64,000 bases of DNA from Edaphobacter sp. (GTDB lineage: Bacteria; Acidobacteriota; Terriglobia; Terriglobales; Acidobacteriaceae): the NCBI GenBank assembly GCA_965277575.1, contig CBDIDK010000001.1, positions 177,622 through 241,621 on the forward strand, given 5' to 3'. Positions 1-10,121 of the stretch are shown here, in pieces. The position numbers were made by a program, and so were the translations under genes. Below the pieces are notes generated by a model. The model was not told the origin of the DNA. It was given only the letters and a program-made list of their open reading frames with translations, and made no database searches. Each line of letters begins with the position of its first letter. Within the stretch, counting starts at the first letter, position 1.

Positions 1-1084
1 GAAATTGGGCATCGACTGCCCGGACGGTGCGTCTGGCTATTCCACGCCGACGTTCCGTATGCAGCCATGCTTTCCTCCTGTCTGGGACACGGCGCAGGTG
101 ATCTCCGCGCTGGGGGAGGCCGGAGTCTCTCGAAGCGATCCGCGTCTGCTGCGGGCTGCGGACTGGCTTTTGTCCAAAGAGGTTCGGCACAAAGGCGATT
201 GGGCTCAAAAAGTAAAAAATGTTGAGCCGGGTGGCTGGTACTTCGAGTTCAACAATGAGTTTTACCCCGATGTCGATGATACCGGGGAGGTTCTGCTGGC
301 ATTGAACTGCGTGGACAATCCGCGCGAGCGGTATCAGCATGAGGTTTGCCAGCGCGCCCTGAACTGGATATGGGCGATGCAGTGCAAAAATGGCGGCTGG
401 GCGGCCTTCGACAAGGACAATACTAAGACAATCTTCCAGTACATCCCGTTCGCCGACCACAACGCGATGCTCGACCCGCCGACGGTCGACATCACCGGAA
501 GGATGCTGGAGATGCTGGCGCAGTACGGGTTCACGCGTGCCGATAAGCGCGTCGAGAAGGCGATCCAGTTCGTCCTGAAGGAGCAGGCCAGTGATGGAAG
601 CTGGTTCGGGCGCTGGGGCGTCAACTACCTGTACGGAACGTTTCTGGTGTTGCGCGGCCTGGAGGCGATGGGCGTCTGGAGTCATGAGCCCTGCATTCTT
701 CAGGCTACCGAGTGGATTCGCATGGTGCAGAATTCCGACGGTGGCTGGGGCGAGACCTGCGGCACCTACGATGAGGAGTTGCAGAAGGGTGTAGGACCAA
801 GCACTCCGTCACAAACCGCATGGGCTCTCTTAGGTCTGCTCGCAGGCGGAGATTCCCGCTCTGATTCCGTAGCGAAGGGTGTGAGGTGGTTGATTGAGCG
901 CCAGCATGCGGACGGCAGTTGGGACGAACTTGTACCCGGGCGCAATGGTGAAAGTTACTACACTGGAACAGGGTTTCCACGCGTCTTCTACCTGGGATAC
1001 CACTTGTATAAACAGTATTTTCCTCTCCTGGCACTGACGACCTACAAGAGGGCCATGGAGCGGGAAGCCGCAGAGGCAGCATAG
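1..1084 (+). CDS. shc: squalene-hopene cyclase, C-terminal ~360 aa (5' end lies outside the window)
   Basis: Frame is open from the window edge (codon phase of nt 2) to TAG at 1082-1084. Contains the protonating DxDD motif (YPDVDDTGE) and several QW-type repeats (DGSWFGRWG, DGGWGE, DGSWDE). Followed by hpnH/hpnA/hpnG. Confidence 0.9.
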   Translation, partial: KLGIDCPDGASGYSTPTFRMQPCFPPVWDTAQVISALGEAGVSRSDPRLLRAADWLLSKEVRHKGDWAQKVKNVEPGGWYFEFNNEFYPDVDDTGEVLLALNCVDNPRERYQHEVCQRALNWIWAMQCKNGGWAAFDKDNTKTIFQYIPFADHNAMLDPPTVDITGRMLEMLAQYGFTRADKRVEKAIQFVLKEQASDGSWFGRWGVNYLYGTFLVLRGLEAMGVWSHEPCILQATEWIRMVQNSDGGWGETCGTYDEELQKGVGPSTPSQTAWALLGLLAGGDSRSDSVAKGVRWLIERQHADGSWDELVPGRNGESYYTGTGFPRVFYLGYHLYKQYFPLLALTTYKRAMEREAAEAA

Positions 1085-1143
1085 AGGACGAGCAGCAGCT
1101 ACACACGCTACGTTTCGCACATTTTCGTTGGAGGAGACAACCG

Positions 1144-2286
1144 ATGGCAGTGCCAGTCTCACAAGCTTGGACCGTCGCAACCTACGTTTTGAAGCAAAAG
1201 CTGATGGGCCGGAAGAAGTATCCGCTTGTGCTCATGCTGGAGCCGCTGTTCCGTTGCAATCTTGCCTGCGCCGGCTGCGGCAAGATTCAGTACCCCGCGC
1301 ACATCCTGAAGGCAGAGCTGTCGCCGGAGGAGTGCTTCAAGGCTGTCGAAGAATGTGGAACCCCGATGGTTGCAATCCCCGGTGGCGAGCCGTTGCTGCA
1401 TCCTCAAATGCCGGAGATCGTCGCCGGTCTGGTCGCCCGCAAGAAGTACGTTTACATGTGCACCAACGCTCTTCTCCTCAAAGAAAAGCTGCACCTTTTC
1501 AAGCCGAGTAAGTATCTTTCGTTCTCTGTACACGTAGACGGCCAGCGCGAGCACCACGATTTCTCGGTCTGTCGTGAAGGCGGGTACGACATCGCCATGG
1601 AGGGTATACGGGTTGCGGTCGAAGCCGGATTTCGCGTCACCACCAACACCACACTCTTCGACGGCGCAGATCCAAATAGCGTGCGCGCCCACTTCGATGA
1701 ATTGATGGTGGCGGGCGTCGAGAGCATGATGGTTTCACCCGGATATACCTACGATAAGGCTCCCGATCAGAAGCATTTTCTCGGCCGTGCGCGTTCGAAG
1801 AAGCTGTTTCGCTCGATATTGTCGAACCGGAAGAAGACCTGGCGGTTCAATGCTTCGCCCATGTTCATGGAGTTTCTGATGGGTAAGAAAGACCTGACCT
1901 GCACCCCCTGGGGCATGCCGACCTTCAGCATCTTCGGCTGGCAGAAGCCATGCTATCTCCTGCAGGATGGATACGCCGACACCTTTAAGGAGTTGATGGA
2001 GACGGTGCAATGGCAGAATTACGGCACGGAATCCGGCAACCCGCAGTGCGCAAACTGCATGGTTCACTCGGGCTACGAGGCCAGCGGAGTCAACTACACC
2101 TTTGGCTCAATCAAAGGCCTGCTGCAGACAGCGAAGGCCATCTTTTTCAATCGATATGAGGATGAGGGTGCGATGAAGCTGCTGAACCAGTGGAAGCCCG
2201 CGCACACCGCGCCTCTCGTCCAGATAGGCTCGCCTCAGACTGCGGCCGGCAAGGCTGCTCAGCTTCAAGAGGTCTCAGGAGACTGA
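1144..2286 (+). CDS. hpnH: adenosylhopane synthase, radical SAM (HpnH)
   Basis: 380-aa ORF. Radical-SAM CxxxCxxC motif (CNLACAGC) follows YPLVLMLEPLFR, which is the HpnH-type N-terminus as I recall it. Lies directly downstream of shc. Confidence 0.9.
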   Translation: MAVPVSQAWTVATYVLKQKLMGRKKYPLVLMLEPLFRCNLACAGCGKIQYPAHILKAELSPEECFKAVEECGTPMVAIPGGEPLLHPQMPEIVAGLVARKKYVYMCTNALLLKEKLHLFKPSKYLSFSVHVDGQREHHDFSVCREGGYDIAMEGIRVAVEAGFRVTTNTTLFDGADPNSVRAHFDELMVAGVESMMVSPGYTYDKAPDQKHFLGRARSKKLFRSILSNRKKTWRFNASPMFMEFLMGKKDLTCTPWGMPTFSIFGWQKPCYLLQDGYADTFKELMETVQWQNYGTESGNPQCANCMVHSGYEASGVNYTFGSIKGLLQTAKAIFFNRYEDEGAMKLLNQWKPAHTAPLVQIGSPQTAAGKAAQLQEVSGD

Positions 2287-2288
2287 CC

Positions 2289-2735
2289 ATGGCGACTGAA
2301 ACGCAGGAATCTGCAAAGCTCGCGCAGTTAAACCAGGCAAATCCCGATGACATCGAAGTAGCCGCAGGCCGTGAGCGCGAGCAGCTTGAGGGCTGGATTC
2401 CGGAGCTGGCGAGTGACGCTGAGATTCGTGAGGCGCTTGAAAAGGCGTTCGACTATCGCGGTGACATTACTGTCACCCGAAAAGACGGCTCACAGATCTC
2501 GGGATATCTCTTCGACCGTCGTCAGGGGCCCTCGCTTGCCGATTCGTACGTCCGCATCATCCCGGCAAACGCCCAGACCAAGGTGAATGTTGCCTACTCC
2601 GATATTGCCGCGCTCGCCTTCACCGGCAGGGATACGGCGGCAGGCAAGACCTTCGAGGCCTGGGTGAAGAAATACTGGGAAAAGAAGGCTGCTGGCGAGC
2701 AGAATATTCAGATCGAACCCGATAAGCTGGACTGA
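2289..2735 (+). CDS. hypothetical 148-aa protein embedded in the hopanoid cluster
   Basis: ATG at 2289 is 2 nt after the hpnH stop, with AGGAG 8 nt upstream inside the hpnH 3' end (translational coupling). Acidic N-terminus and no motif I recognise. The ORF-track start at 2190 would overlap hpnH by ~100 nt and is unlikely. Confidence 0.6.
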   Translation: MATETQESAKLAQLNQANPDDIEVAAGREREQLEGWIPELASDAEIREALEKAFDYRGDITVTRKDGSQISGYLFDRRQGPSLADSYVRIIPANAQTKVNVAYSDIAALAFTGRDTAAGKTFEAWVKKYWEKKAAGEQNIQIEPDKLD

Positions 2736-2813
2736 GATTTTGTCACGATACAGACTTCGACGGTGAACAGGGCGCGAATCAACTGGAATGGATAGGTAAG
2801 GGAAGAGCGTGAC

Positions 2814-3809
2814 GTGCGCGTATTCATCACGGGAGCGACGGGCTTCGTCGGCGGCCATGTGGCTCGGCGCTTTGCGGCTGAAGGAGCAAGGCTCCGCCTC
2901 CTGACCCGCCAGACAAGCCGCCTCGAATCGCTCGCCGGCATCAACGCCGAGATGGTGAATGGTGATCTCCGCCGAACCAAGGAGTTCCGGATCGCACTCG
3001 CCGGTTGCGACGCTCTGGTACATGTCGCCGCGGACTATCGCCTGTGGGTGCGTGATCCTGACCAGATGTACGCGGCTAACGTTGACGGCACACGAGAGCT
3101 TTTGAAACTCGCCCGTGAGGCCGGTATACCTCGCGTTGTCTACACGTCGAGCGTTGCAACGATGGGCTTCAAGGCCGACGGCACTATCGTCGATGAGGAC
3201 ACGCCTGTGGGCCTGGCAGACATGATCGGCCACTACAAAAGGTCGAAGTTTCTGGGCGAGCAGCAGGCCATCGAAGCCGCCAAGGCCGGCCAGCATGTCA
3301 TGATACTGAATCCGACAACCCCCATCGGCCCAGGCGATGCCAAGCCCACGCCTACCGGCAGGATCATCGTCGATTTTCTGAACAGGAAGTTTCCTGCCTA
3401 TGTCGATACGGGTTTAAACCTTGTCGACGTCGAAGAGGTGGCCCGGATGCATGTGGTCGCGCTCGAGCACGGCACACCGGGCGAACGCTATATTCTGGGC
3501 GGCGAAAACCTGACTTTGAAGCAGATCCTCGATCGCATGTCCGCCATCACCGGCTTGCCCTCGCCGACCATGAAGGTTCCTCACAGCGTCGCAATGGTCT
3601 TCGCCTTCTTCGACGAAAACATCACCGGCAAGCTCCTCGGGAAGGAGCCGCGCGCTACTGTCGAAGCCGTCCGCATGGGCAGAAAAATGATGTTCGCCTC
3701 CTCGTCCAAAGCCGAACGCGATCTTGGTTTTCAGGTGCTTCCTATCTATCCGGCGATGCGGTCGGCAATTGAATGGTTTATTGCAAACGGCTATGCGCCA
3801 AAGCTATGA
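2814..3809 (+). CDS. hpnA: hopanoid-associated NAD-dependent sugar epimerase/dehydratase-family SDR (HpnA)
   Basis: GTG start. N-terminal Rossmann motif GATGFVGG and extended-SDR YxxxK (YKRSK). Context between hpnH and hpnG. Confidence 0.75.
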   Translation: MRVFITGATGFVGGHVARRFAAEGARLRLLTRQTSRLESLAGINAEMVNGDLRRTKEFRIALAGCDALVHVAADYRLWVRDPDQMYAANVDGTRELLKLAREAGIPRVVYTSSVATMGFKADGTIVDEDTPVGLADMIGHYKRSKFLGEQQAIEAAKAGQHVMILNPTTPIGPGDAKPTPTGRIIVDFLNRKFPAYVDTGLNLVDVEEVARMHVVALEHGTPGERYILGGENLTLKQILDRMSAITGLPSPTMKVPHSVAMVFAFFDENITGKLLGKEPRATVEAVRMGRKMMFASSSKAERDLGFQVLPIYPAMRSAIEWFIANGYAPKL

Positions 3810-4525
3810 GGATTGCGATCATTGCGGCATTGCCCGGGGAGTTGAAGCCGCTCGTGAGACATTGGCGGCAAATTTCTACAGGAGTGACTGGGGTAAGGAA
3901 GTGGATACAGTCCAGCGGCGCGGACACCTGGATCGCGGTGTGTGCGGGAATGGGCGCTGAGGCAGTGCGGAGGGCCTATGCAGTGGCAGCGTCGGATGGA
4001 GAGCTGGACATGCTGCTCTCGGTTGGCTGGGCGGGCTCGCTCAGCGCCAGCGTAAGCCCCGGAACAGTTCACGTTCCGACGGTTGTCATCGACGCACAGA
4101 CAGGGGAGCAGTTCAATCTGACCGGCAGTGGCAGAAGATGGCCCCTGGTGACAACCGCACACGTCGCCGATGCCGCCGAAAAAACCCGTCTCGCCGAAAC
4201 GTACCGAGGAGCTGTTCTGGTCGATATGGAGGCGGCCACCGTAGCACGCCTGGCTGCGATGAACGGAATTCCTGTGCTCTGTATCAAGGGAGTGTCCGAT
4301 GCGGTTGGCGCAAGGCTCCCTGATCTGAATCTCTTCATCGGCAGTATGGGAGAGATGCAGATGGCGAGGTTTATCGCTCACATCTCTTTGCGGCCACAGT
4401 ATTGGCCGTCGTTGTTTCACCTCGGCAGGAACAGTGCCCGAGCAGCCGAGGCCATGCGAGACTTAATCCTGGAATTTATGAAGGAAAAGAATGTTGAAAA
4501 GCTCATTCGAACCGGCCGTGTCTAA
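3806..4525 (+). CDS. hpnG: hopanoid-associated nucleosidase/phosphorylase (HpnG, PNP/MTA-nucleosidase fold)
   Basis: ATG at 3806 overlaps the hpnA stop (ATGA). N-terminus MRIAIIAALPGE plus the VDMEAA and KGVSD motifs of the PNP_UDP_1/MTAN family. The ORF-track start at 3773 is less likely. Confidence 0.8.
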   Translation: MRIAIIAALPGELKPLVRHWRQISTGVTGVRKWIQSSGADTWIAVCAGMGAEAVRRAYAVAASDGELDMLLSVGWAGSLSASVSPGTVHVPTVVIDAQTGEQFNLTGSGRRWPLVTTAHVADAAEKTRLAETYRGAVLVDMEAATVARLAAMNGIPVLCIKGVSDAVGARLPDLNLFIGSMGEMQMARFIAHISLRPQYWPSLFHLGRNSARAAEAMRDLILEFMKEKNVEKLIRTGRV

Positions 4526-4550
4526 CCAAGTAAATAAAGTCCCCACTACT

Positions 4551-5639
4551 ATGCGAGCCGCCGTCTATCGCGGCAAGAACGATGTGCATGTCGAGACGAT
4601 TCCGGTGCCGGAGATTGGCCCCGATGAAGTCCTGGTCAGGATCCACACCTGCGGGATCTGCGGGACGGACCTCAAGAAAATTCACACCGGCTCCCATGAC
4701 GCGCCCCGCGTCTTCGGCCACGAAATGGCCGGGACCATCGTCCGGGTCGGTGAGGCGGCCAACAGTTTCGCTGTCGGCGACCGCGTCATGGCCTACCACC
4801 ACATCCCCTGCGGCCATTGCTTCTACTGCAGCAAGCAGACCTTCGCGCAGTGCGAGGTCTACAAAAAGGTGGGCTGCACAGCGGGTTTCGCTCCGTCGGG
4901 GGGAGGCTTCGCAGAATACATCCGCGTGATGAACTGGATCGTACGCCGCGGTCTCATCAAAATCCCCGATGACATCCCCTTCGAACAGGCCGCGTTCATC
5001 GAGCCGGTCAATACCTGCTACAAGGCGATTCAACTCCTGAATCTGCAACCCGATGAGACGGTCCTGGTCATCGGCCAGGGGTCAATAGGCATCCTGCTCG
5101 CCGCGCTCGCTCGCAAGACCGGAGCGACCGTACTGACCAGCGATTTCTACTCGGAGCGCCACGCAGTCGCCGCATGGTTCGGCCTCAACCGCCCTCTCGA
5201 TGCCAGGGAAGATGTTGCTGCCGCGGCGAGGGCTGCAACGAAAGGTCGCGGCGCCGATGTGGCATTGGTTGCGGTGGGCGGCAACGCGCTTATCAAAACG
5301 GCAATGGACGCCATCCGCCCCGGCGGTCGCGTCGTCTTGTTCGCTCAGACGCAGCACGGAGAGGCACCCTTCGACCCTGCCGCGGTTTGCATGGATGAAA
5401 AGACTCTCATGGGCTCGTATAGTGCGTCGGTCGCCATCCAGGATGAGGTAACTCAGATAGTCTTCGATGGATATCGTGACGGCTTCGACCTGACGAACCT
5501 GATCTCACACAGGTTTTCGCTGGAGGACGCCGTCGACGCTCTCGACCTGGCGTCCCACCCCCAGGCCGACTCGCTCAAGGTAGTCATTCAACCTGGACTC
5601 ATCAGGCGAGAGTCCGGACCCCTCCCACTATCGGAGTAA
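4551..5639 (+). CDS. zinc-dependent medium-chain alcohol/polyol dehydrogenase
   Basis: Catalytic-Zn Cys in HTCGICGTD and His in GHEMAG. Structural-Zn tetrad CGHCFYCSKQTFAQC. Rossmann motif VIGQGSIGIL. Start is either ATG 4551 (MRAAVYRG, the typical MDR N-terminus) or ATG 4491 (AAGGAA RBS, overlapping the hpnG 3' end). Confidence 0.85.
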   Translation: MRAAVYRGKNDVHVETIPVPEIGPDEVLVRIHTCGICGTDLKKIHTGSHDAPRVFGHEMAGTIVRVGEAANSFAVGDRVMAYHHIPCGHCFYCSKQTFAQCEVYKKVGCTAGFAPSGGGFAEYIRVMNWIVRRGLIKIPDDIPFEQAAFIEPVNTCYKAIQLLNLQPDETVLVIGQGSIGILLAALARKTGATVLTSDFYSERHAVAAWFGLNRPLDAREDVAAAARAATKGRGADVALVAVGGNALIKTAMDAIRPGGRVVLFAQTQHGEAPFDPAAVCMDEKTLMGSYSASVAIQDEVTQIVFDGYRDGFDLTNLISHRFSLEDAVDALDLASHPQADSLKVVIQPGLIRRESGPLPLSE

Positions 5640-5707
5640 CTTGCTATCCGTGTTTGTCCGTGACACTTCCCGGTCGATGTTTTCGCAATTCTGAAGTGGC
5701 GGCAAGG

Positions 5708-7153
5708 CTAATCGCGGGTTCGCTTCTTGACCTCGACGTTCAGCCGTTTGATCTTCTGGTTTAGCGTCGAGAGTGGAATTTTGAAATACTCCGCCGCCTC
5801 GGTCTGGTTCCAATGGCAGCGCTCCAGACGGTCCGATATGATGCGTCGCTCGATCTCTTCCATCAAGTCGAACAGCGAGGCATCCGGCTGATGGTCCAGC
5901 AGGGTGGCCGAATAGGTGCTGCCGGTCAATTGCGTGGGCAGCAGGTCCGCGCCGATCGTCCGTGAGGTGGCGAGAACAACACCGCGTTCCATCGCATTCT
6001 CCAGCTCGCGCACATTGCCTGGCCACTCGTAATCCATGATGACCCGCATGGCTTCGGGCGAGATTGATGGCACCTCAGTCCCATTCTCATCGGCATACAA
6101 CTTCAAAAAATGAGCGGCCAGTAAAGGGATATCTTCACGACGGGAACGCAGCGGCGGCAGCTCCAGGCAGATGACATTGAGGCGGTAGAAGAGGTCCTCG
6201 CGGAACCGGCCCTGCCGCACGGCCTCTTGCAGGTTCACATTCGTCGCAGCGATGATCCGGACGTCTACCTGAATCTCCTGCACGCCACCGAGATGCATGA
6301 AGCGGCGGTCCTGCAGAACGCGCAGAATTTTGGCCTGCATGTCCATTCCCATCGTGCCGATCTCGTCGAGGAAGAGCGTTCCGCCGTTGGCTACTTCAAA
6401 TAGTCCCTTTTTCGCCGTAACAGCCGAAGTGAACGCGCCTTTGACATGACCGAAGAGTGTCGATTCCAGCAGATCCGAGGGCACCGCTCCCGTATTGACA
6501 GGCACGAACGGCCGGTCGCGGCGCGGCGAGTTGGCATGAAGCGCCTTCGCGATCAACTCTTTCCCGGTTCCGCTCTCACCTTGCAGCAAGACCGTCGACC
6601 GGCTTGGCGCTACCTGCGCGATCAGGTCGAAGAGGCTCAACATCGGCTCGCTCTTGCCGACGATATTCTCGAAGTTGTAGCGCTGCTTCAGGGTTCGCTT
6701 GAGCTGGACAACCTCTTCCTCGGCGCGATGCCGGGCCACCGCCGCGCGAATATCCGCGAGCAGCTTTTCGTTATCCCAGGGCTTCTGGATAAAGTTTTCC
6801 GCACCCGCGCGAATCGCATCGACAACATTGCCGACGGTCCCGTAGGCCGTGATCATGATGACCGGCAGGTTCGGTTGCATCTCCGTGATACGCGGCAGCA
6901 GATCGATCCCGCTCTCGCCGGGGAGCGCTAGATCGAGCAGCAGCAGGTCGTACTCATTGCGCGCCAGCAGTTCCAGACCCGACGCACCGTCACCGGCCGT
7001 GTTCACGGTAAACCCTTCGAGACTGAGCAGCGTATCGAGCGACTCGCGAATTGCCATCTCGTCATCGATGATGAGAATGCGTGGATCGCCCACGACTCGT
7101 GCCGTGCGTTTCAGATGAAGCGACTCGGCTGCCAGTTCGGTTGTTTCAGACAT
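5708..7153 (-). CDS. sigma-54-dependent response regulator (NtrC family)
   Basis: Receiver domain (RILIIDDE ... LLLLDLALPG). AAA+ sigma-54 interaction domain (Walker A GESGTGKE; GAFTSA variant of the GAFTGA loop). C-terminal Fis-type HTH. ATG at 7153 (MSETT) overlaps the kinase stop by 8 nt. Confidence 0.9.
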   Translation of the reverse strand: MSETTELAAESLHLKRTARVVGDPRILIIDDEMAIRESLDTLLSLEGFTVNTAGDGASGLELLARNEYDLLLLDLALPGESGIDLLPRITEMQPNLPVIMITAYGTVGNVVDAIRAGAENFIQKPWDNEKLLADIRAAVARHRAEEEVVQLKRTLKQRYNFENIVGKSEPMLSLFDLIAQVAPSRSTVLLQGESGTGKELIAKALHANSPRRDRPFVPVNTGAVPSDLLESTLFGHVKGAFTSAVTAKKGLFEVANGGTLFLDEIGTMGMDMQAKILRVLQDRRFMHLGGVQEIQVDVRIIAATNVNLQEAVRQGRFREDLFYRLNVICLELPPLRSRREDIPLLAAHFLKLYADENGTEVPSISPEAMRVIMDYEWPGNVRELENAMERGVVLATSRTIGADLLPTQLTGSTYSATLLDHQPDASLFDLMEEIERRIISDRLERCHWNQTEAAEYFKIPLSTLNQKIKRLNVEVKKRTRD

Positions 7154-10121
7154 GAATCGTCTTCCTCTCGGATTCCCGGATACCGGTTTCCGGCTGTTCG
7201 GCACTCAATGGCGTGCGAGCGCCGGAGGCAGGGAACTCAAGCTGGAAGGCCGTCCCGACGCCAAGTTCGCTCTCGACGTGAATCTTGCCCGCGTGCTCCT
7301 GCATGATGCCGTAGCTCACGGCCAGTCCGAGGCCGGTGCCCTTGTGCTCCCCCTCCTGCGGCTTGGTTTTCGTCGTGAAGAATGGGTCGTAGATCCGGTG
7401 CAGATGCTCCCGTTCGATACCGCCGCCGGAATCCTGAATTCGTATCAGCACCCGTCCCGCACCGTTGAAGGTGGCAATCTTAAGCGTTGCATCTGGTGTC
7501 CCAAACATCGCGTCCTTGGCATTCAACATGAGGTTCAGGATGACCTGCTGCAGCTTGCCCTGGTTTCCACGTATGCGGGAGAGGTGCGGTTCCAGGTTCG
7601 TCTCCACTCGAATCTGCGAGGTCTTGAACTGGTGCTCCAGCAGCGTCATCGTGTCCCGCAGGAGCTGATTCAGATCGATACTGGTGAACTCGGCGCCGCT
7701 GGTGCGCGAAAAGTTCAGCAGACCATTCACGATCTCGGACGCACGGAAGGTCTGCTGGGTGATTTTTTCGAGGATCGTTGCGAGCCGCTCATCGTCCCGC
7801 ATATGTTTGGTCAGCATCTGCGTGTAGCTTGAGATGACGGCGAGCGGTGTATTCACCTCATGCGCCACACCTGCGGCGAGCAGCCCGATCGATGAGAGCT
7901 TCTCGGCCTGCGTCAATTGCGCCTCCAACTGCATCCGGTCCGTGATATCGTCCACCAGGATGATGCGTCCGACGGCAATGAAGTTTCGCGTCACAAGGGG
8001 CGCGATCGCGATGTTGGCAATGCGGACGGACCCGTTAGGCAGGGCGAGGCGGAATTTGTAGAGCGTGTGCGTCCCCTGATCCTCCTGCACGCTGTTGAAA
8101 TTGGCGACAAAGTCCGGCGGAAATACGGCCGCGAGCGGCTGGTGCAGAACCTCCGTTCGCCCCTTCGCGAACATGCCTTCCATCTGAGTATTCCAACTCT
8201 CGATCCGGCCATCCAGATCGACAGCAAACACTCCGATATTGATCGATTCCACGATATTTTCGTGAAACTCCTTCAAGCTCTCGAACTCGGTAATCTTCTG
8301 TTCGAGACGTTGATAGAGCTGCGCGTTCTGGATCGCGATTCCGATGTAGCCGGCCAGCGACTCCAGCAGTTCCATGTCTTCGCTCGAGAGAAAGTCTCCA
8401 TCGTCCGTGCGACCCAGCCCGATTACGGCGACCGTTCGCGTCCCGCCGCCCTCGCGATTGGCGACCCGGCAGGGAAGATAGTAGTTCAGGTCCAGGCGTC
8501 CGGCGCTATGCTGCTGTGCCGCGGGAAGACGAAGCACCTGCTGCGGGTTCTCAAGAAAGATATGGTTGTTTGCTCCGGGCCGGTCGAAGTCGAGGAAACG
8601 CACGTCCAACTCCCGCAGGTCGGGGGCTTGAAGGTTGGTGAGTCCGTGAGATGCGGCCAGATTGAAGTGCCGCACGGACGTTTCGCCATCTGCCTCAGAG
8701 GCAAGGAACACAGCAACGCGGGTGACCAGGAGCGTCTGCGGCAGCCGTTCTACGATCGAATCGAGCAGTGCGCGCAGATCCGTCTGCGAGTTGATACCAC
8801 GTCCAAACTCTACGAGAGTTTCGCGGTAGTCGAATCGCTTCTGATCGAAGACGCGGTCGACCCGCGCCTGAATCGCTCTTTTCAGCGGATCGAAGACGAT
8901 GCCTGTGATGATGATGCCGGCCAGCAGCCCCCAGACGCGCAGGCTGGGCAGCCGCGTATGCACCATCTCCGCCGTCACTGCTACGACGCCGAAGTAAAGT
9001 CCTACCAGCGAAGCCGTGGCCAGCGTGTAGGTCACGCCTCGTTTGAAGATCAGATCGACGTCCATCAGGCGGTAACGCACGATGGCCCAACTGAAGGTAA
9101 GCGGAAGAATGACCAGCGACAGCCCGGCGAGCTTGGTCAGCAGGGTCGGGACAGACCAGTCTGCGAGGTACGGGATGACATTGAAGATCGTAAACGGCGT
9201 AACGGCAAGCAGTGTCCCGCGGGTCAGCCACTTCAATTGCTGCCGCTCCAGCGCAGACTCCGCCCGCCGGTATCGCAGCCGGAACACGATTGCGGCTATG
9301 ACGTAGTACAGCGCGAGGTAGCCTAATGCAATCTGATCCAAACGGTGCAGCAGCACCTCGGTCGCAGACCAGAAGCGAATAGCCCGGTACTGAAGGCCGA
9401 TCAGGAACAAACCGGGTACATACAGCAATGTGCTGAGTATCCGCCGTCCCACGCGGTTCCGGTGCTCAGACGCAAAATCGTCCGAGAAGCTGACCGCAAA
9501 GTGCAGAAACAGCGCGGGCTGCAGCGCCTGCGCCGCCAGGTTTCCCCAGTAGATGAACCAGTCGAATGCTCCTGGTTCTCCCGTCGACCGGAAGCTGTAC
9601 AGCACGAAGGAAGCCAGGCAGAACACATAGAAATGAACCGACTTGGGTGCCGTCCACCGCCGAAACAGCACATAGATTCCGATGCACAGGTATACCAGCG
9701 CGATGAGCCTGAACGCCTGGTTGATCGACCTGTCCTTTGGCTCCAGAATCACCTGGATATCCAGCCGCGTCGCTCCGTTCAGGTCGATCGCGTGAGACAC
9801 CGGCCGGAGGATGGAATAGGTCGCGTGGGCCCAGATGCCGCTGCGAAACATCTCCCGCACCAGAGGAGCCAATCGCGCGGTAGGTTGATCGTCGATGGCG
9901 ACCAGCACATCGCCCGTGCGTATACCCGCGCGGTGCCCGGGAGAGACGACCGGAACCCGCTCGGCCCGCAATCCACCCGCTGCCTCTACCCACCAGATGC
10001 CGTCCGTGGGGACGTCGAAGCCATTCTCCCGCTCGAAGTTGATCCCGGCCAGAACGCACACAGCCACCGTCGCCAACGCGAGGACGACTGCGAGGATTCG
10101 GGTTTGGGCAGCATCTTTCAT
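7146..10121 (-). CDS. large membrane sensor histidine kinase (N-terminal PDZ-like domain, multi-TM block, GAF/PAS, HisKA, HATPase)
   Basis: 991 aa. N-terminal TM segment, then a PDZ-like segment (SPGHRAGIRTGDVLVAIDDQP). This is followed by about 8 hydrophobic segments and a cytoplasmic sensor region. H-box GVAHEVNTPL, N-box LNLMLNAKDAM, G1 DSGGGI, G2 GTGLGLAVS. Confidence 0.85.
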   Translation of the reverse strand: MKDAAQTRILAVVLALATVAVCVLAGINFERENGFDVPTDGIWWVEAAGGLRAERVPVVSPGHRAGIRTGDVLVAIDDQPTARLAPLVREMFRSGIWAHATYSILRPVSHAIDLNGATRLDIQVILEPKDRSINQAFRLIALVYLCIGIYVLFRRWTAPKSVHFYVFCLASFVLYSFRSTGEPGAFDWFIYWGNLAAQALQPALFLHFAVSFSDDFASEHRNRVGRRILSTLLYVPGLFLIGLQYRAIRFWSATEVLLHRLDQIALGYLALYYVIAAIVFRLRYRRAESALERQQLKWLTRGTLLAVTPFTIFNVIPYLADWSVPTLLTKLAGLSLVILPLTFSWAIVRYRLMDVDLIFKRGVTYTLATASLVGLYFGVVAVTAEMVHTRLPSLRVWGLLAGIIITGIVFDPLKRAIQARVDRVFDQKRFDYRETLVEFGRGINSQTDLRALLDSIVERLPQTLLVTRVAVFLASEADGETSVRHFNLAASHGLTNLQAPDLRELDVRFLDFDRPGANNHIFLENPQQVLRLPAAQQHSAGRLDLNYYLPCRVANREGGGTRTVAVIGLGRTDDGDFLSSEDMELLESLAGYIGIAIQNAQLYQRLEQKITEFESLKEFHENIVESINIGVFAVDLDGRIESWNTQMEGMFAKGRTEVLHQPLAAVFPPDFVANFNSVQEDQGTHTLYKFRLALPNGSVRIANIAIAPLVTRNFIAVGRIILVDDITDRMQLEAQLTQAEKLSSIGLLAAGVAHEVNTPLAVISSYTQMLTKHMRDDERLATILEKITQQTFRASEIVNGLLNFSRTSGAEFTSIDLNQLLRDTMTLLEHQFKTSQIRVETNLEPHLSRIRGNQGKLQQVILNLMLNAKDAMFGTPDATLKIATFNGAGRVLIRIQDSGGGIEREHLHRIYDPFFTTKTKPQEGEHKGTGLGLAVSYGIMQEHAGKIHVESELGVGTAFQLEFPASGARTPLSAEQPETGIRESERKTIHV

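What the first reader, a model, noticed from the sequence alone, without database searches (positions are those of the whole stretch)
4491..5639. Zn-dependent polyol/alcohol dehydrogenase at the end of the hpn operon: candidate for the unassigned ribosylhopane-to-bacteriohopanetetrol reductase
Seen in sequence: a complete MDR Zn-ADH (HTCGICGTD, GHEMAG, structural-Zn CGHCFYCSKQTFAQC, Rossmann VIGQGSIGIL). It starts 26 nt after hpnG, or overlaps it by 35 nt if ATG 4491 is used. It is on the same strand as shc-hpnH-orf148-hpnA-hpnG and is the last gene before a convergent unit. Established knowledge: HpnH makes adenosylhopane and HpnG removes adenine to give ribosylhopane. To my knowledge, the reduction of the ribosyl (open-chain aldehyde) form to the tetrol side chain of bacteriohopanetetrol has no assigned enzyme. 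Sorbitol/polyol-dehydrogenase-type MDR enzymes catalyse exactly this aldose/ketose-to-polyol chemistry. Inference: this gene is a positional and chemical candidate for that step. HpnA (an SDR of unknown role) is the competing candidate.
Basis: partly seen in the sequence, partly recalled or inferred. Interest (0 to 1): 0.7.

Follow-up and report, generated by a model that had tools for sequence, protein, structure and literature searches.

The report
Zinc dehydrogenase inside the hopanoid operon
This is an intact zinc alcohol dehydrogenase gene that sits directly after hpnG in acidobacterial hopanoid-lipid operons; it is a reasonable but unproven candidate for the missing last step of bacteriohopanetetrol synthesis, and it shares that candidacy with a partner dehydrogenase that is not in this window.

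Summary
Window 4491-5639 (+) encodes a complete MDR zinc dehydrogenase directly after shc-hpnH-orf148-hpnA-hpnG. Comparison with relatives supports ATG 4491 as the start.

This gene is the "ug1" of Sinninghe Damsté et al. 2017 (hpnA-hpnG-ug1 cluster, function not established). The linkage is therefore already published. The reductase idea is not in any paper I could search, and 2025-2026 papers still call the ribosylhopane-to-BHT enzyme unknown.

I surveyed 178 loci.
- hpnG is directly upstream in 78 of 80 Terriglobales loci, but in only 34 of 65 metagenomic loci and in 5 of 15 sequence clades.
- The steadier neighbour is a second MDR, "ug2", directly downstream. It is there in 59 of 65 metagenomic loci and most clades, including Armatimonadota loci without hpnG, and usually precedes hpnC/hpnD.
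- This genome lacks ug2 at the locus.
- ug1 always has an NAD(H)-type cofactor site. ug2 has an NADP(H)-type site.

Verdict: ug1 is probably a hopanoid-pathway oxidoreductase. I put the chance that the ug1/ug2 pair supplies the missing reductase at about 0.45, and that ug1 itself is the reductase at about 0.25. It is a new member of a known enzyme kind, of moderate interest, and directly testable.

The parts
4491..5639 (+). ug1: MDR zinc dehydrogenase, 382 aa. The alternative start ATG 4551 would give 362 aa.
   Evidence: Pfam ADH_N and ADH_zinc_N. No NCBIfam equivalog reaches its cut-off. An upstream ATG at about -19 codons is conserved in relatives. The AlphaFold2 model has pLDDT 85.5 and pTM 0.86.
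4473..4483 (+). Shine-Dalgarno-like GAAGGAAAAGA upstream of ATG 4491, inside the 3' end of hpnG
   Evidence: Read from the sequence. No comparable purine-rich site precedes ATG 4551.
4644..4670 (+). HTCGICGTD. The second Cys (C57) is the catalytic zinc ligand. T59 and K62 occupy the proton-relay positions.
   Evidence: C, T/S, D and K are invariant in 178 ug1 sequences. Alignment to 4cpd.
4716..4733 (+). GHEMAG: catalytic zinc ligands His77 and Glu78
   Evidence: Invariant in 178 of 178 ug1 sequences.
4809..4853 (+). Structural zinc lobe with four cysteines (C107, C110, C113, C121)
   Evidence: Invariant in 178 of 178 ug1 sequences.
4998..5012 (+). IEPVN: Glu171, the fourth catalytic zinc ligand typical of the polyol/threonine dehydrogenase branch
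   Evidence: Invariant in 178 of 178 ug1 sequences.
5067..5096 (+). Rossmann GxGxxG (VIGQGSIGIL)
   Evidence: The glycines are invariant.
5130..5144 (+). VLTSD: the acidic residue (Asp218) at the end of beta-2 marks an NAD(H)-type cofactor pocket
   Evidence: Asp in 170 and Glu in 8 of 178 ug1 sequences. ug2 has Val/Gly/Ala followed by Lys/Arg at this site.
3806..4525 (+). hpnG-like nucleosidase/phosphorylase. The likely start is ATG 3806, which forms an ATGA overlap with the hpnA stop. The longest ORF starts at 3773.
   Evidence: PNP_UDP_1. TIGR03468 is the best NCBIfam hit but below its cut-off. ATGA junction. The L001 gene call is 239 aa.
2814..3809 (+). hpnA (extended SDR, 'hopanoid-associated sugar epimerase')
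   Evidence: TIGR03466 scores 475 bits against a cut-off of 368.
2289..2735 (+). orf148 (= ug3), unknown function, always follows hpnH
   Evidence: No Pfam or NCBIfam hit. hpnH-orf148 are adjacent in 52 of 52 loci.
1144..2286 (+). hpnH (radical SAM adenosylhopane synthase)
   Evidence: TIGR03470 scores 527 bits against a cut-off of 225.
5..1084 (+). 3' part of shc (squalene-hopene cyclase). The gene runs off the window start.
   Evidence: TIGR01507 scores 435 bits. SQHop_cyclase_C 6e-142.

Best explanation
Window 4491-5639 encodes 'ug1', a soluble and catalytically complete zinc MDR dehydrogenase of the polyol/threonine-dehydrogenase branch with an NAD(H)-type cofactor pocket. It is co-transcribed with hpnG inside the acidobacterial hopanoid operon, and probably translationally coupled to it. 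It is one half of an old two-gene module. In most relatives a second MDR, 'ug2', with an NADP(H)-type pocket follows within a few bases, and squalene-synthesis genes come next. This genome's lineage has lost ug2-hpnCDE from the locus.

My best reading is that ug1 and ug2, together with the SDR HpnA, are the redox enzymes that process the ribose-derived C5 side chain made by HpnH and HpnG. I think one of the two MDRs carries out the missing reduction of open-chain ribosylhopane (the C-35 aldehyde) to bacteriohopanetetrol. The mechanism would be hydride transfer from the nicotinamide to a carbonyl polarised by the Cys57/His77/Glu78/Glu171 zinc site, with a Thr59/Lys62 proton relay.

Shown here: enzyme class, intact catalytic and structural zinc sites, cofactor-site type, and gene linkage. 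Inferred: the substrate, the direction, and which of the two MDRs is the reductase. Gene position favours ug1 and cofactor type favours ug2. My estimates are 0.45 that the pair supplies the reductase and about 0.25 that ug1 itself is it.
For: Enzyme: ADH_N and ADH_zinc_N domains. All zinc ligands and the GxGxxG motif are invariant in 178 ug1 sequences. The AlphaFold2 model (pLDDT 85.5) superposes on MDR secondary-alcohol, polyol and threonine dehydrogenases with TM 0.75-0.80.

Linkage in 82 Terriglobales loci: hpnG-ug1 adjacent in 78 of 80, ug1-ug2 in 77 of 81, ug2-hpnC in 73 of 74. By contrast orf148-hpnA is adjacent in only 32 of 66 and hpnA-hpnG in 67 of 78. With the conserved upstream ATG as the start, the hpnG-ug1 gap has a median of 6 nt and 22 of 66 pairs overlap.

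Deeper conservation: clades only 46-53% identical to this protein keep shc-hpnH-hpnA-hpnG-ug1-ug2-hpnC-hpnD (hpnG upstream in 15 of 15 and 9 of 9 loci). Another Acidobacteriota clade has ispH-hpnA-ug1-ug2-SQS-shc. An Armatimonadota genome has ug1-ug2-x-hpnC-hpnD-hpnE. The pair therefore stays inside hopanoid gene clusters through several rearrangements.

Where downstream context differs (L001 versus L002), ug1 stays with hpnG.

Need: the ribosylhopane-to-BHT enzyme is still unassigned. The 2017 paper reports that HpnA is dispensable or absent in some BHT producers.
Against: The pair also occurs with no hpn gene in the fetched flanks. Nine of 15 clades never show hpnG upstream. L095, L111, L114 and L116 have no hpn gene within about 5-10 kb on either side.

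One clade keeps hpnA-ug1-ug2 with no hpnG within 10 kb. In L004 and a clade at about 62% identity, ug1-ug2-hpnCD is separated from hpnG.

Model BHT producers have hpn clusters without an MDR; Rhodomicrobium is one example. A 2025 survey of genes near shc did not report an MDR family among its candidates. At best, then, this is a lineage-specific solution.

The ug1 cofactor site is NAD(H)-type, whereas biosynthetic reductions usually use NADPH.

The nearest characterised relatives act on secondary alcohols or ketones, not aldose C1, and none exceeds 31% identity.

The cluster holds three unassigned oxidoreductases but only one known unassigned redox step. No biochemical data exist.
Confidence: 0.45

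Rival explanations
1. Division of labour with the roles reversed. ug2 (NADP(H)-type) is the ribosylhopane reductase. ug1 (NAD(H)-type) runs oxidatively on the same side chain. It could oxidise the hemiacetal to the lactone ribonylhopane, or oxidise the C-34 hydroxyl (the polyol C2 position that sorbitol-type enzymes attack). In the second case ug2 could re-reduce the ketone, giving a keto or epimeric bacteriohopanepolyol.
For: The cofactor sites are complementary and conserved across clades: acidic in 178 of 178 ug1, non-acidic plus Lys/Arg in about 131 of 139 ug2. The gene order ug1 then ug2 is fixed, often with a 4-nt overlap. Ribonylhopane is a reported natural hopanoid. The NADP(H)-dependent ketose reductase 1e3j is among the top structure matches of ug2. 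The nearest families of ug1 are secondary-alcohol and polyol dehydrogenases.
Against: Keto or epimeric BHPs are not reported for Acidobacteria in the 2017 survey, which found mostly tetrafunctionalised BHPs. In this genome's clade ug1 is kept next to hpnG without ug2. Cofactor prediction from one site is a rule of thumb.
Confidence: 0.2
2. The ug1/ug2 pair is a general polyol, sugar or amino-alcohol dehydrogenase module unrelated to hopanoids. Its place in acidobacterial hpn clusters is inherited gene order, not shared function.
For: The pair stands alone as a two-gene unit in several lineages, next to QueF, a GntG/threonine-aldolase-like gene, TPR proteins, a heparinase or a methyltransferase. 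One clade has ug1 alone with no ug2 and no hpn genes (0 of 8 loci). A distant relative is fused to a nucleotidyltransferase. Sources annotate it as L-iditol 2-dehydrogenase.
Against: The pair remains inside hopanoid gene sets through at least four different arrangements and in two phyla. The junctions on both sides are as tight as those between known hpn genes. It overlaps hpnG. No sugar transporter, kinase or regulator accompanies it in the acidobacterial loci.
Confidence: 0.2
3. The pair serves the squalene branch rather than the side chain. It could act on an alcohol intermediate such as hydroxysqualene or a farnesol-type alcohol alongside HpnC/D/E.
For: Outside Terriglobales, ug2 is followed by hpnC/D in 41 of 51 informative loci, more often than hpnG precedes ug1 (35 of 75 across the metagenome and distant-representative sets). 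The Armatimonadota locus links the pair to hpnCDE without hpnG. The 2017 paper noted ug2 in front of hpnC.
Against: The HpnC/D/E route is described as complete in the 2017 paper's summary. Where the cluster split, in this genome's clade, ug1 stayed with hpnG and not with hpnCDE. No MDR is known to act on these lipids.
Confidence: 0.08

Closest known systems
'ug1' (Zn-dependent alcohol dehydrogenase, about 370 aa) of gene cluster C, hpnA-hpnG-ug1, in Acidobacteria (Sinninghe Damsté et al. 2017, PMC5462960)
   Same: It is the same gene family and the same position directly after hpnG. The size is the same if ATG 4491 is used. It is reported for subdivision 1, 2 and 3 Acidobacteria.
   Different: Nothing differs in kind. 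The paper lists the function as 'not established' and suggests HpnA, not ug1, for the ribosylhopane step. It treats ug1 and ug2 as parts of separate clusters. It does not note that they form a conserved pair with different cofactor sites or that the pair occurs outside Acidobacteria.
Polyol/threonine dehydrogenase branch of the MDR superfamily (sorbitol dehydrogenase 1pl6, ketose reductase 1e3j, threonine dehydrogenase 2dfv, butanediol dehydrogenase 6ie0, Thermus TADH 4cpd)
   Same: The fold matches (TM 0.75-0.80). It has Cys/His/Glu(+Glu) catalytic zinc, a four-Cys structural zinc, a Rossmann domain, and an acidic residue specifying NAD(H).
   Different: Identity is at most 31%. No NCBIfam equivalog cut-off is met: TDH 161 against 380, IolM 173 against 450, GatD 136 against 550. 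It has family-specific TD[LVI]KK and TAGFxPxGGGFAEY motifs. Those enzymes act on secondary alcohols or ketones in soluble substrates.
TarJ / galactitol-1-phosphate dehydrogenase GatD (MDRs that interconvert ketose phosphates and polyol phosphates)
   Same: They are MDR zinc enzymes that make or use a C5 or C6 polyol chain derived from a sugar. GatD is among the better matches. A distant ug1 relative is fused to a nucleotidyltransferase, like the TarI/TarJ pairing (the TarI/TarJ comparison is from my own knowledge).
   Different: The match is far below the equivalog cut-off. This route would need an aldose-ketose isomerase and a phosphatase, and neither is seen in the cluster.
HpnA (hopanoid-associated SDR 'sugar epimerase')
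   Same: It is an unassigned NAD(P)-dependent oxidoreductase in the same operon. It is conserved next to ug1, or separated from it only by hpnG, and it was proposed earlier for the same missing step.
   Different: It belongs to a different superfamily (extended SDR). It is widespread in hopanoid producers outside Acidobacteria. The 2017 paper reports it as dispensable for BHT in Burkholderia and absent in Rhodopseudomonas.
Aldose reductases of the aldo-keto reductase family (my own knowledge)
   Same: They catalyse the proposed chemistry, aldose C1 aldehyde to alditol.
   Different: The fold is unrelated (TIM barrel), there is no metal, and they are NADPH-dependent. No such gene is in the cluster.

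Membership tests
MDR zinc-dependent alcohol dehydrogenase superfamily | GroES-like catalytic domain plus Rossmann cofactor domain | tested here: met
   PF08240 3.2e-27 and PF00107 6.7e-19. The AlphaFold2 model matches MDR structures with Foldseek E about 1e-29 and TM 0.75-0.80.
MDR zinc-dependent alcohol dehydrogenase superfamily | Catalytic zinc ligands (Cys, His, Glu, plus the Glu of ExxN) and four-Cys structural zinc | tested here: met
   C57, H77, E78, E171 and C107/C110/C113/C121 (382-aa numbering) are present and invariant in 178 ug1 sequences.
MDR zinc-dependent alcohol dehydrogenase superfamily | GxGxxG and cofactor-specifying residue after beta-2 | tested here: met
   GQGSIG is present. 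Asp218 marks an NAD(H)-type site, with Asp or Glu in 178 of 178 sequences. Actual cofactor use was not measured.
L-threonine 3-dehydrogenase (TIGR00692 / NF003808) | Score at or above the curated equivalog cut-off | tested here: not met
   161 and 152 bits against cut-offs of 380 and 458.
scyllo-inosose 3-dehydrogenase IolM (NF041097) | Score at or above the curated equivalog cut-off | tested here: not met
   172.7 bits against a cut-off of 450.
Sorbitol / L-iditol 2-dehydrogenase (the name given by JGI) | Close sequence relationship to characterised enzymes, and activity on polyol C2 | tested here: inconclusive
   About 25% identity to 1pl6 and 3qe3 and 29% to xylitol dehydrogenase 7y9p. It is in the same branch, but nothing shows it is an orthologue. 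Activity cannot be tested here.
Acidobacterial hopanoid cluster gene ug1 (PMC5462960) | Zn-ADH of about 370 aa directly downstream of hpnA-hpnG, same strand | tested here: met
   Window gene order. The same order in 78 of 80 Terriglobales loci. Description in the paper.
Ribosylhopane reductase (a function with no defined family) | NAD(P)H-dependent conversion of ribosylhopane to bacteriohopanetetrol | not testable with these tools
   Only indirect evidence is available: linkage to hpnG, hpnA and hpnCDE. There are no biochemical data.
Ribosylhopane reductase (a function with no defined family) | Presence wherever hpnH/hpnG-dependent BHT is made, and absence elsewhere | tested here: inconclusive
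   hpnG adjacency is found in 5 of 15 ug1 clades. The pair also occurs without hpn genes within 10 kb. Model BHT producers' clusters lack an MDR. Whole-genome co-occurrence could not be computed.

The most novel reading that the evidence does not exclude
HpnA, ug1 and ug2 form an unrecognised three-enzyme redox module that finishes and tailors the C35 hopanoid side chain. ug2 would be the NADPH-dependent ribosylhopane reductase. ug1 would be an NAD+-dependent dehydrogenase acting on the C-34 (polyol C2) hydroxyl or on the hemiacetal. Together they could produce keto, lactone or epimeric bacteriohopanepolyols. That would give a genetic basis for the BHT stereoisomers used as biomarkers.
Probability: 0.1. 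Interest if true: 0.8.

Novelty: new member of a known kind. Interest (0 to 1): 0.45.

Why it matters
Bacteriohopanepolyols are major membrane lipids and the source of the hopane fossil record. The step from ribosylhopane to bacteriohopanetetrol has had no enzyme since the pathway was outlined, and some reviews even call it non-enzymatic. This locus narrows the search in Acidobacteria, which dominate many soils, to two closely linked MDR dehydrogenases plus HpnA. It also gives concrete predictions: which cofactor each enzyme should use, and which products to look for. If either MDR proves to be the reductase, the BHT pathway could be rebuilt in a heterologous host, and genomic prediction of BHT production would improve. 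If not, the pair is still a conserved hopanoid-cluster module of unknown role that is worth characterising.

Tried and rejected
1. An apparent HpnG-ADH fusion in L010, L024 and L034 (negative gaps) was an artefact. tblastn alignments had run through a stop codon, and the stop is present.

2. The 602-aa relative P0145 looked like a possible HpnG-ADH fusion. Its N-terminal domain is a nucleotidyltransferase, not PNP_UDP_1.

3. The promoter and terminator scan of 1-7300 found nothing above the shuffled expectation. No signal separates hpnG from ug1, and no clear terminator follows ug1.

4. Sequence and fold searches against solved structures gave only generic MDR matches at 31% identity or less, so no substrate can be inferred.

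5. I could not retrieve Liu et al. 2014 or Bodlenner et al. 2015. The NADPH requirement of the cell-free reduction therefore rests on my memory.

6. The supplement of the 2025 microsynteny preprint is not held, so I could not check whether an MDR family was counted near shc.

7. The genome-contig scan returned only the 80 closest Terriglobales loci. Wider sampling had to come from representative clusters and one metagenome scan.

8. Single-linkage clustering chained most sequences together, so I replaced it with average linkage.

9. I first took C34 (362-aa numbering) for the catalytic cysteine. Alignment logic places it at C37, which is C57 in the 382-aa protein.
Full report
**What is there**

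Window 4491-5639 (+) is an open reading frame of 382 codons ending in TAA. Pfam finds the two MDR domains, ADH_N (3.2e-27) and ADH_zinc_N (6.7e-19).

Upstream on the same strand lie:
- the 3' part of shc (TIGR01507, 435 bits);
- hpnH (TIGR03470, 527 bits);
- a 148-codon ORF with no family match;
- hpnA (TIGR03466, 475 bits);
- an hpnG-like PNP_UDP_1 gene, whose best NCBIfam hit is HpnG at 78 bits, below the cut-off of 187.

hpnA and hpnG share an ATGA junction if hpnG starts at 3806. Downstream, a sigma-54 response regulator and a histidine kinase converge on the gene.

**Start codon**

In 79 of 81 Terriglobales loci an in-frame ATG lies upstream of the conserved MxAAVY methionine. It is exactly 19 codons upstream in 47 loci, and the peptide between them is conserved (MATQ...(I/V)P(A/T)T).

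In the window the equivalent ATG is 4491, preceded by AAGGA. ATG 4551 has no such site. With this start, the hpnG-to-ug1 distance in relatives has a median of 6 nt and 22 of 66 pairs overlap. Here the overlap is 35 nt. No promoter-like or terminator-like site above chance separates the genes. Co-transcription and translational coupling are therefore likely but not shown.

**What kind of enzyme**

Catalytic zinc ligands (C57, H77, E78, E171 in 382-aa numbering), the four-cysteine structural zinc site and GxGxxG are all present. They are invariant in 178 family members.

No NCBIfam equivalog is reached. The best hits are IolM (173 bits against a cut-off of 450), threonine dehydrogenase (161 against 380), GatD (136 against 550) and Ahr (87 against 470).

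The best solved structures by sequence and by fold are generic secondary-alcohol, polyol and threonine dehydrogenases at 31% identity or less (4ej6, 4cpd, 6ie0, 2dfv, 1e3j). The AlphaFold2 model is confident (pLDDT 85.5, pTM 0.86), apart from the first nine residues and a loop at 125-140 next to the zinc lobe.

The residue that closes beta-2 of the Rossmann fold is Asp218. It is Asp or Glu in 178 of 178 relatives, the usual mark of NAD(H) rather than NADP(H) use.

**Already described**

Sinninghe Damsté et al. 2017 (PMC5462960) defined three acidobacterial gene clusters:
- cluster B: ispH, shc, hpnH, ug3;
- cluster C: hpnA, hpnG, ug1;
- cluster A: ug2, hpnC, hpnD, hpnE.

Their Table S1 lists ug1 as 'Zn-dependent alcohol dehydrogenase (ca. 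370 AA)' and ug2 as 'Zn-binding alcohol dehydrogenase (ca. 350 AA)', both with function 'not established'. For the ribosylhopane step they proposed HpnA, while noting evidence against it.

The gene in this window is ug1. The linkage is therefore known. I did not find the specific reductase idea for ug1 in the searchable literature. Papers from 2025 and 2026 still call the enzyme unknown or the step non-enzymatic.

**Neighbourhood survey, close relatives**

I examined 82 Terriglobales loci: 80 species genomes plus two look-ups. Adjacency, defined as a gap under 400 nt, was as follows.

| Junction | Adjacent / informative |
|---|---|
| shc-hpnH | 46 / 49 |
| hpnH-orf148 | 52 / 52 |
| orf148-hpnA | 32 / 66 |
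| hpnA-hpnG | 67 / 78 |
| hpnG-ug1 | 78 / 80 |
| ug1-ug2 | 77 / 81 |
| ug2-hpnC | 73 / 74 |

So ug1 is normally an internal gene of a super-operon, shc-hpnH-ug3-hpnA-hpnG-ug1-ug2-hpnC-hpnD-hpnE.

Its 'last gene' status here is shared only with L001, L002 and L061. The window has no ug2 or hpnC anywhere in its 64 kb. In L004 the break is on the other side: a divergent ABC ATPase precedes ug1-ug2-hpnC-hpnD. ug1 and ug2 are only 32% identical.

**Neighbourhood survey, distant relatives**

A search of 1.84 billion cluster representatives found only about a dozen full-length clusters at 40-49% identity before scores fall to the general MDR background. Their contexts are:
- QueF-ug1-ug2;
- ug1-ug2 alone, on marine contigs up to 22.6 kb;
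- ug1-ug2 next to a GGDEF gene;
- ug1-ug2 flanked by unrelated genes;
- a solitary copy in a cyanobacterium;
- in Armatimonadota, a threonine-aldolase-like gene followed by ug1-ug2-orf-hpnC-hpnD-hpnE.

A metagenome scan added 80 loci at 41-67% identity.
- Of 65 loci informative upstream, hpnG is adjacent in 34, hpnA is directly adjacent in 9, and something else in 22.
- Of 65 loci informative downstream, ug2 follows in 59.
- In the metagenome and distant-representative sets together, ug2 is followed by hpnC/D in 41 of 51 informative loci.

I grouped all 178 ug1 sequences by average linkage at about 58% identity, which gives 15 clades.
- hpnG is upstream in five clades: 88 of 99 loci, 15 of 15, 9 of 9, and two singletons.
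- hpnA is directly upstream in one clade (9 of 9).
- Neither is upstream in nine clades.
- ug2 follows in most clades (at least 12 of 15).

The hpnA-ug1 clade is Acidobacteriota. Its operon reads ispH-hpnA-ug1-ug2-SQS_PSY-shc, with no hpnH or hpnG within 10 kb. The L114 clade, which has no hpn genes within 10 kb, is Chthonomonadaceae.

**The partner**

ug2 keeps all catalytic residues. At the cofactor site it has Val/Gly/Ala (136 of 139) followed by Lys/Arg (131 of 139), the NADP(H) pattern. Its structure matches include the NADP(H)-dependent ketose reductase 1e3j. The complementary pattern, ug1 acidic and ug2 basic, holds in the distant pairs too, with two exceptions (L087 and L096).

**Interpretation**

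The pair stays inside hopanoid gene sets through at least four different arrangements and in two phyla. Its junctions are as tight as those between known hpn genes. I therefore think a hopanoid-related role is likely in these lineages.

In this pathway the only sugar-like or polyol substrate before glycosylation is the ribose-derived side chain, and the only step lacking an enzyme is ribosylhopane to BHT. One of the cluster's three unassigned oxidoreductases is the natural candidate. HpnA is disfavoured by the genetic evidence quoted.

Between the two MDRs, position favours ug1. It abuts hpnG and stayed with it when this lineage lost ug2-hpnCDE from the locus. Cofactor type favours ug2.

My estimates are:
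- 0.45 that the pair supplies the reductase;
- about 0.25 that ug1 itself is the reductase;
- 0.2 that ug1 is instead an NAD+-linked oxidising partner (lactone, 34-keto or epimer formation);
- 0.2 that the pair has no dedicated hopanoid role;
- under 0.1 that it serves the squalene branch.

**Limits**

Sorbitol-type MDRs act at the polyol C2/ketose position, and aldose C1 reduction is typical of aldo-keto reductases. Aldehyde reduction is still common elsewhere in the MDR superfamily.

hpn clusters of model BHT producers carry no MDR, and a 2025 survey of genes near shc did not report one among its candidates. So any such role is lineage-specific.

The NADPH dependence of the cell-free reduction is from my memory of Bodlenner et al. 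2015, which I could not read. Whole-genome co-occurrence of ug1/ug2 with hpnH/hpnG could not be computed with the tools at hand. No experiment exists.

**Verdict**

The feature is real and correctly described, and its linkage is already in the literature. It is a new member of a known enzyme kind. The proposed function is plausible and testable but only partly supported. The main new result is that ug1 is half of a conserved NAD-type/NADP-type dehydrogenase pair, so the partner is an equally good candidate.

Noticed in passing
window 2289-2735 (+): orf148 (= ug3 of the 2017 paper) follows hpnH in 52 of 52 Terriglobales loci. That is the tightest junction in the cluster, yet the protein has no Pfam or NCBIfam match. 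It is a conserved hopanoid-cluster protein of unknown function.
   Followed up: partly
window 3806-4525 (+); L002, L070, L098, L133: Every acidobacterial HpnG tested scores far below the TIGR03468 cut-off (78-120 bits against 187). The window's HpnG is only 37% identical to that of L002, although the flanking HpnH, HpnA and ADH are 84-93% identical. HpnG therefore either evolves much faster than its neighbours or exists as two divergent types within Terriglobales.
   Followed up: partly
P0145 (representative search): A 602-aa relative (37% identity) fuses an N-terminal nucleotidyltransferase (NTP_transferase) to the ug1-like MDR domain. The architecture recalls ribitol-phosphate cytidylyltransferase/reductase pairs.
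   Followed up: partly
L089 6946-7977 and L103 2889-4142: In two separate lineages (both Armatimonadota: the L089 genome and the L103 locus, which clusters with the Chthonomonadaceae L114 clade) a GntG-family/threonine-aldolase-like PLP enzyme sits directly upstream of ug1-ug2.
   Followed up: no
L100, L111, L116, L117, L122, L129, L137, L176: One clade of ug1-like genes (43-47% identity) is solitary. It has no ug2 downstream and no hpn gene in the fetched flanks. Its function may have diverged.
   Followed up: no
P0128, P0140: Two distant ug1-like representatives have lost the structural-zinc cysteines, and one (P0128) has also lost the catalytic cysteine. They may be inactive or differently built relatives.
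   Followed up: no
L179 7807-15182; L180: An Acidobacteriota lineage has a compact operon ispH-hpnA-ug1-ug2-single SQS_PSY gene-shc with no hpnH, hpnG or hpnE within 10 kb. A single squalene/phytoene-synthase gene replaces hpnC/D/E.
   Followed up: partly
window 5708-10121 (-): A sigma-54-dependent response regulator and a large PDZ/GAF/PAS histidine kinase converge on the end of the hpn genes here and in L001 and L061. L002 has fucosidase and rhamnose genes at that position instead.
   Followed up: no
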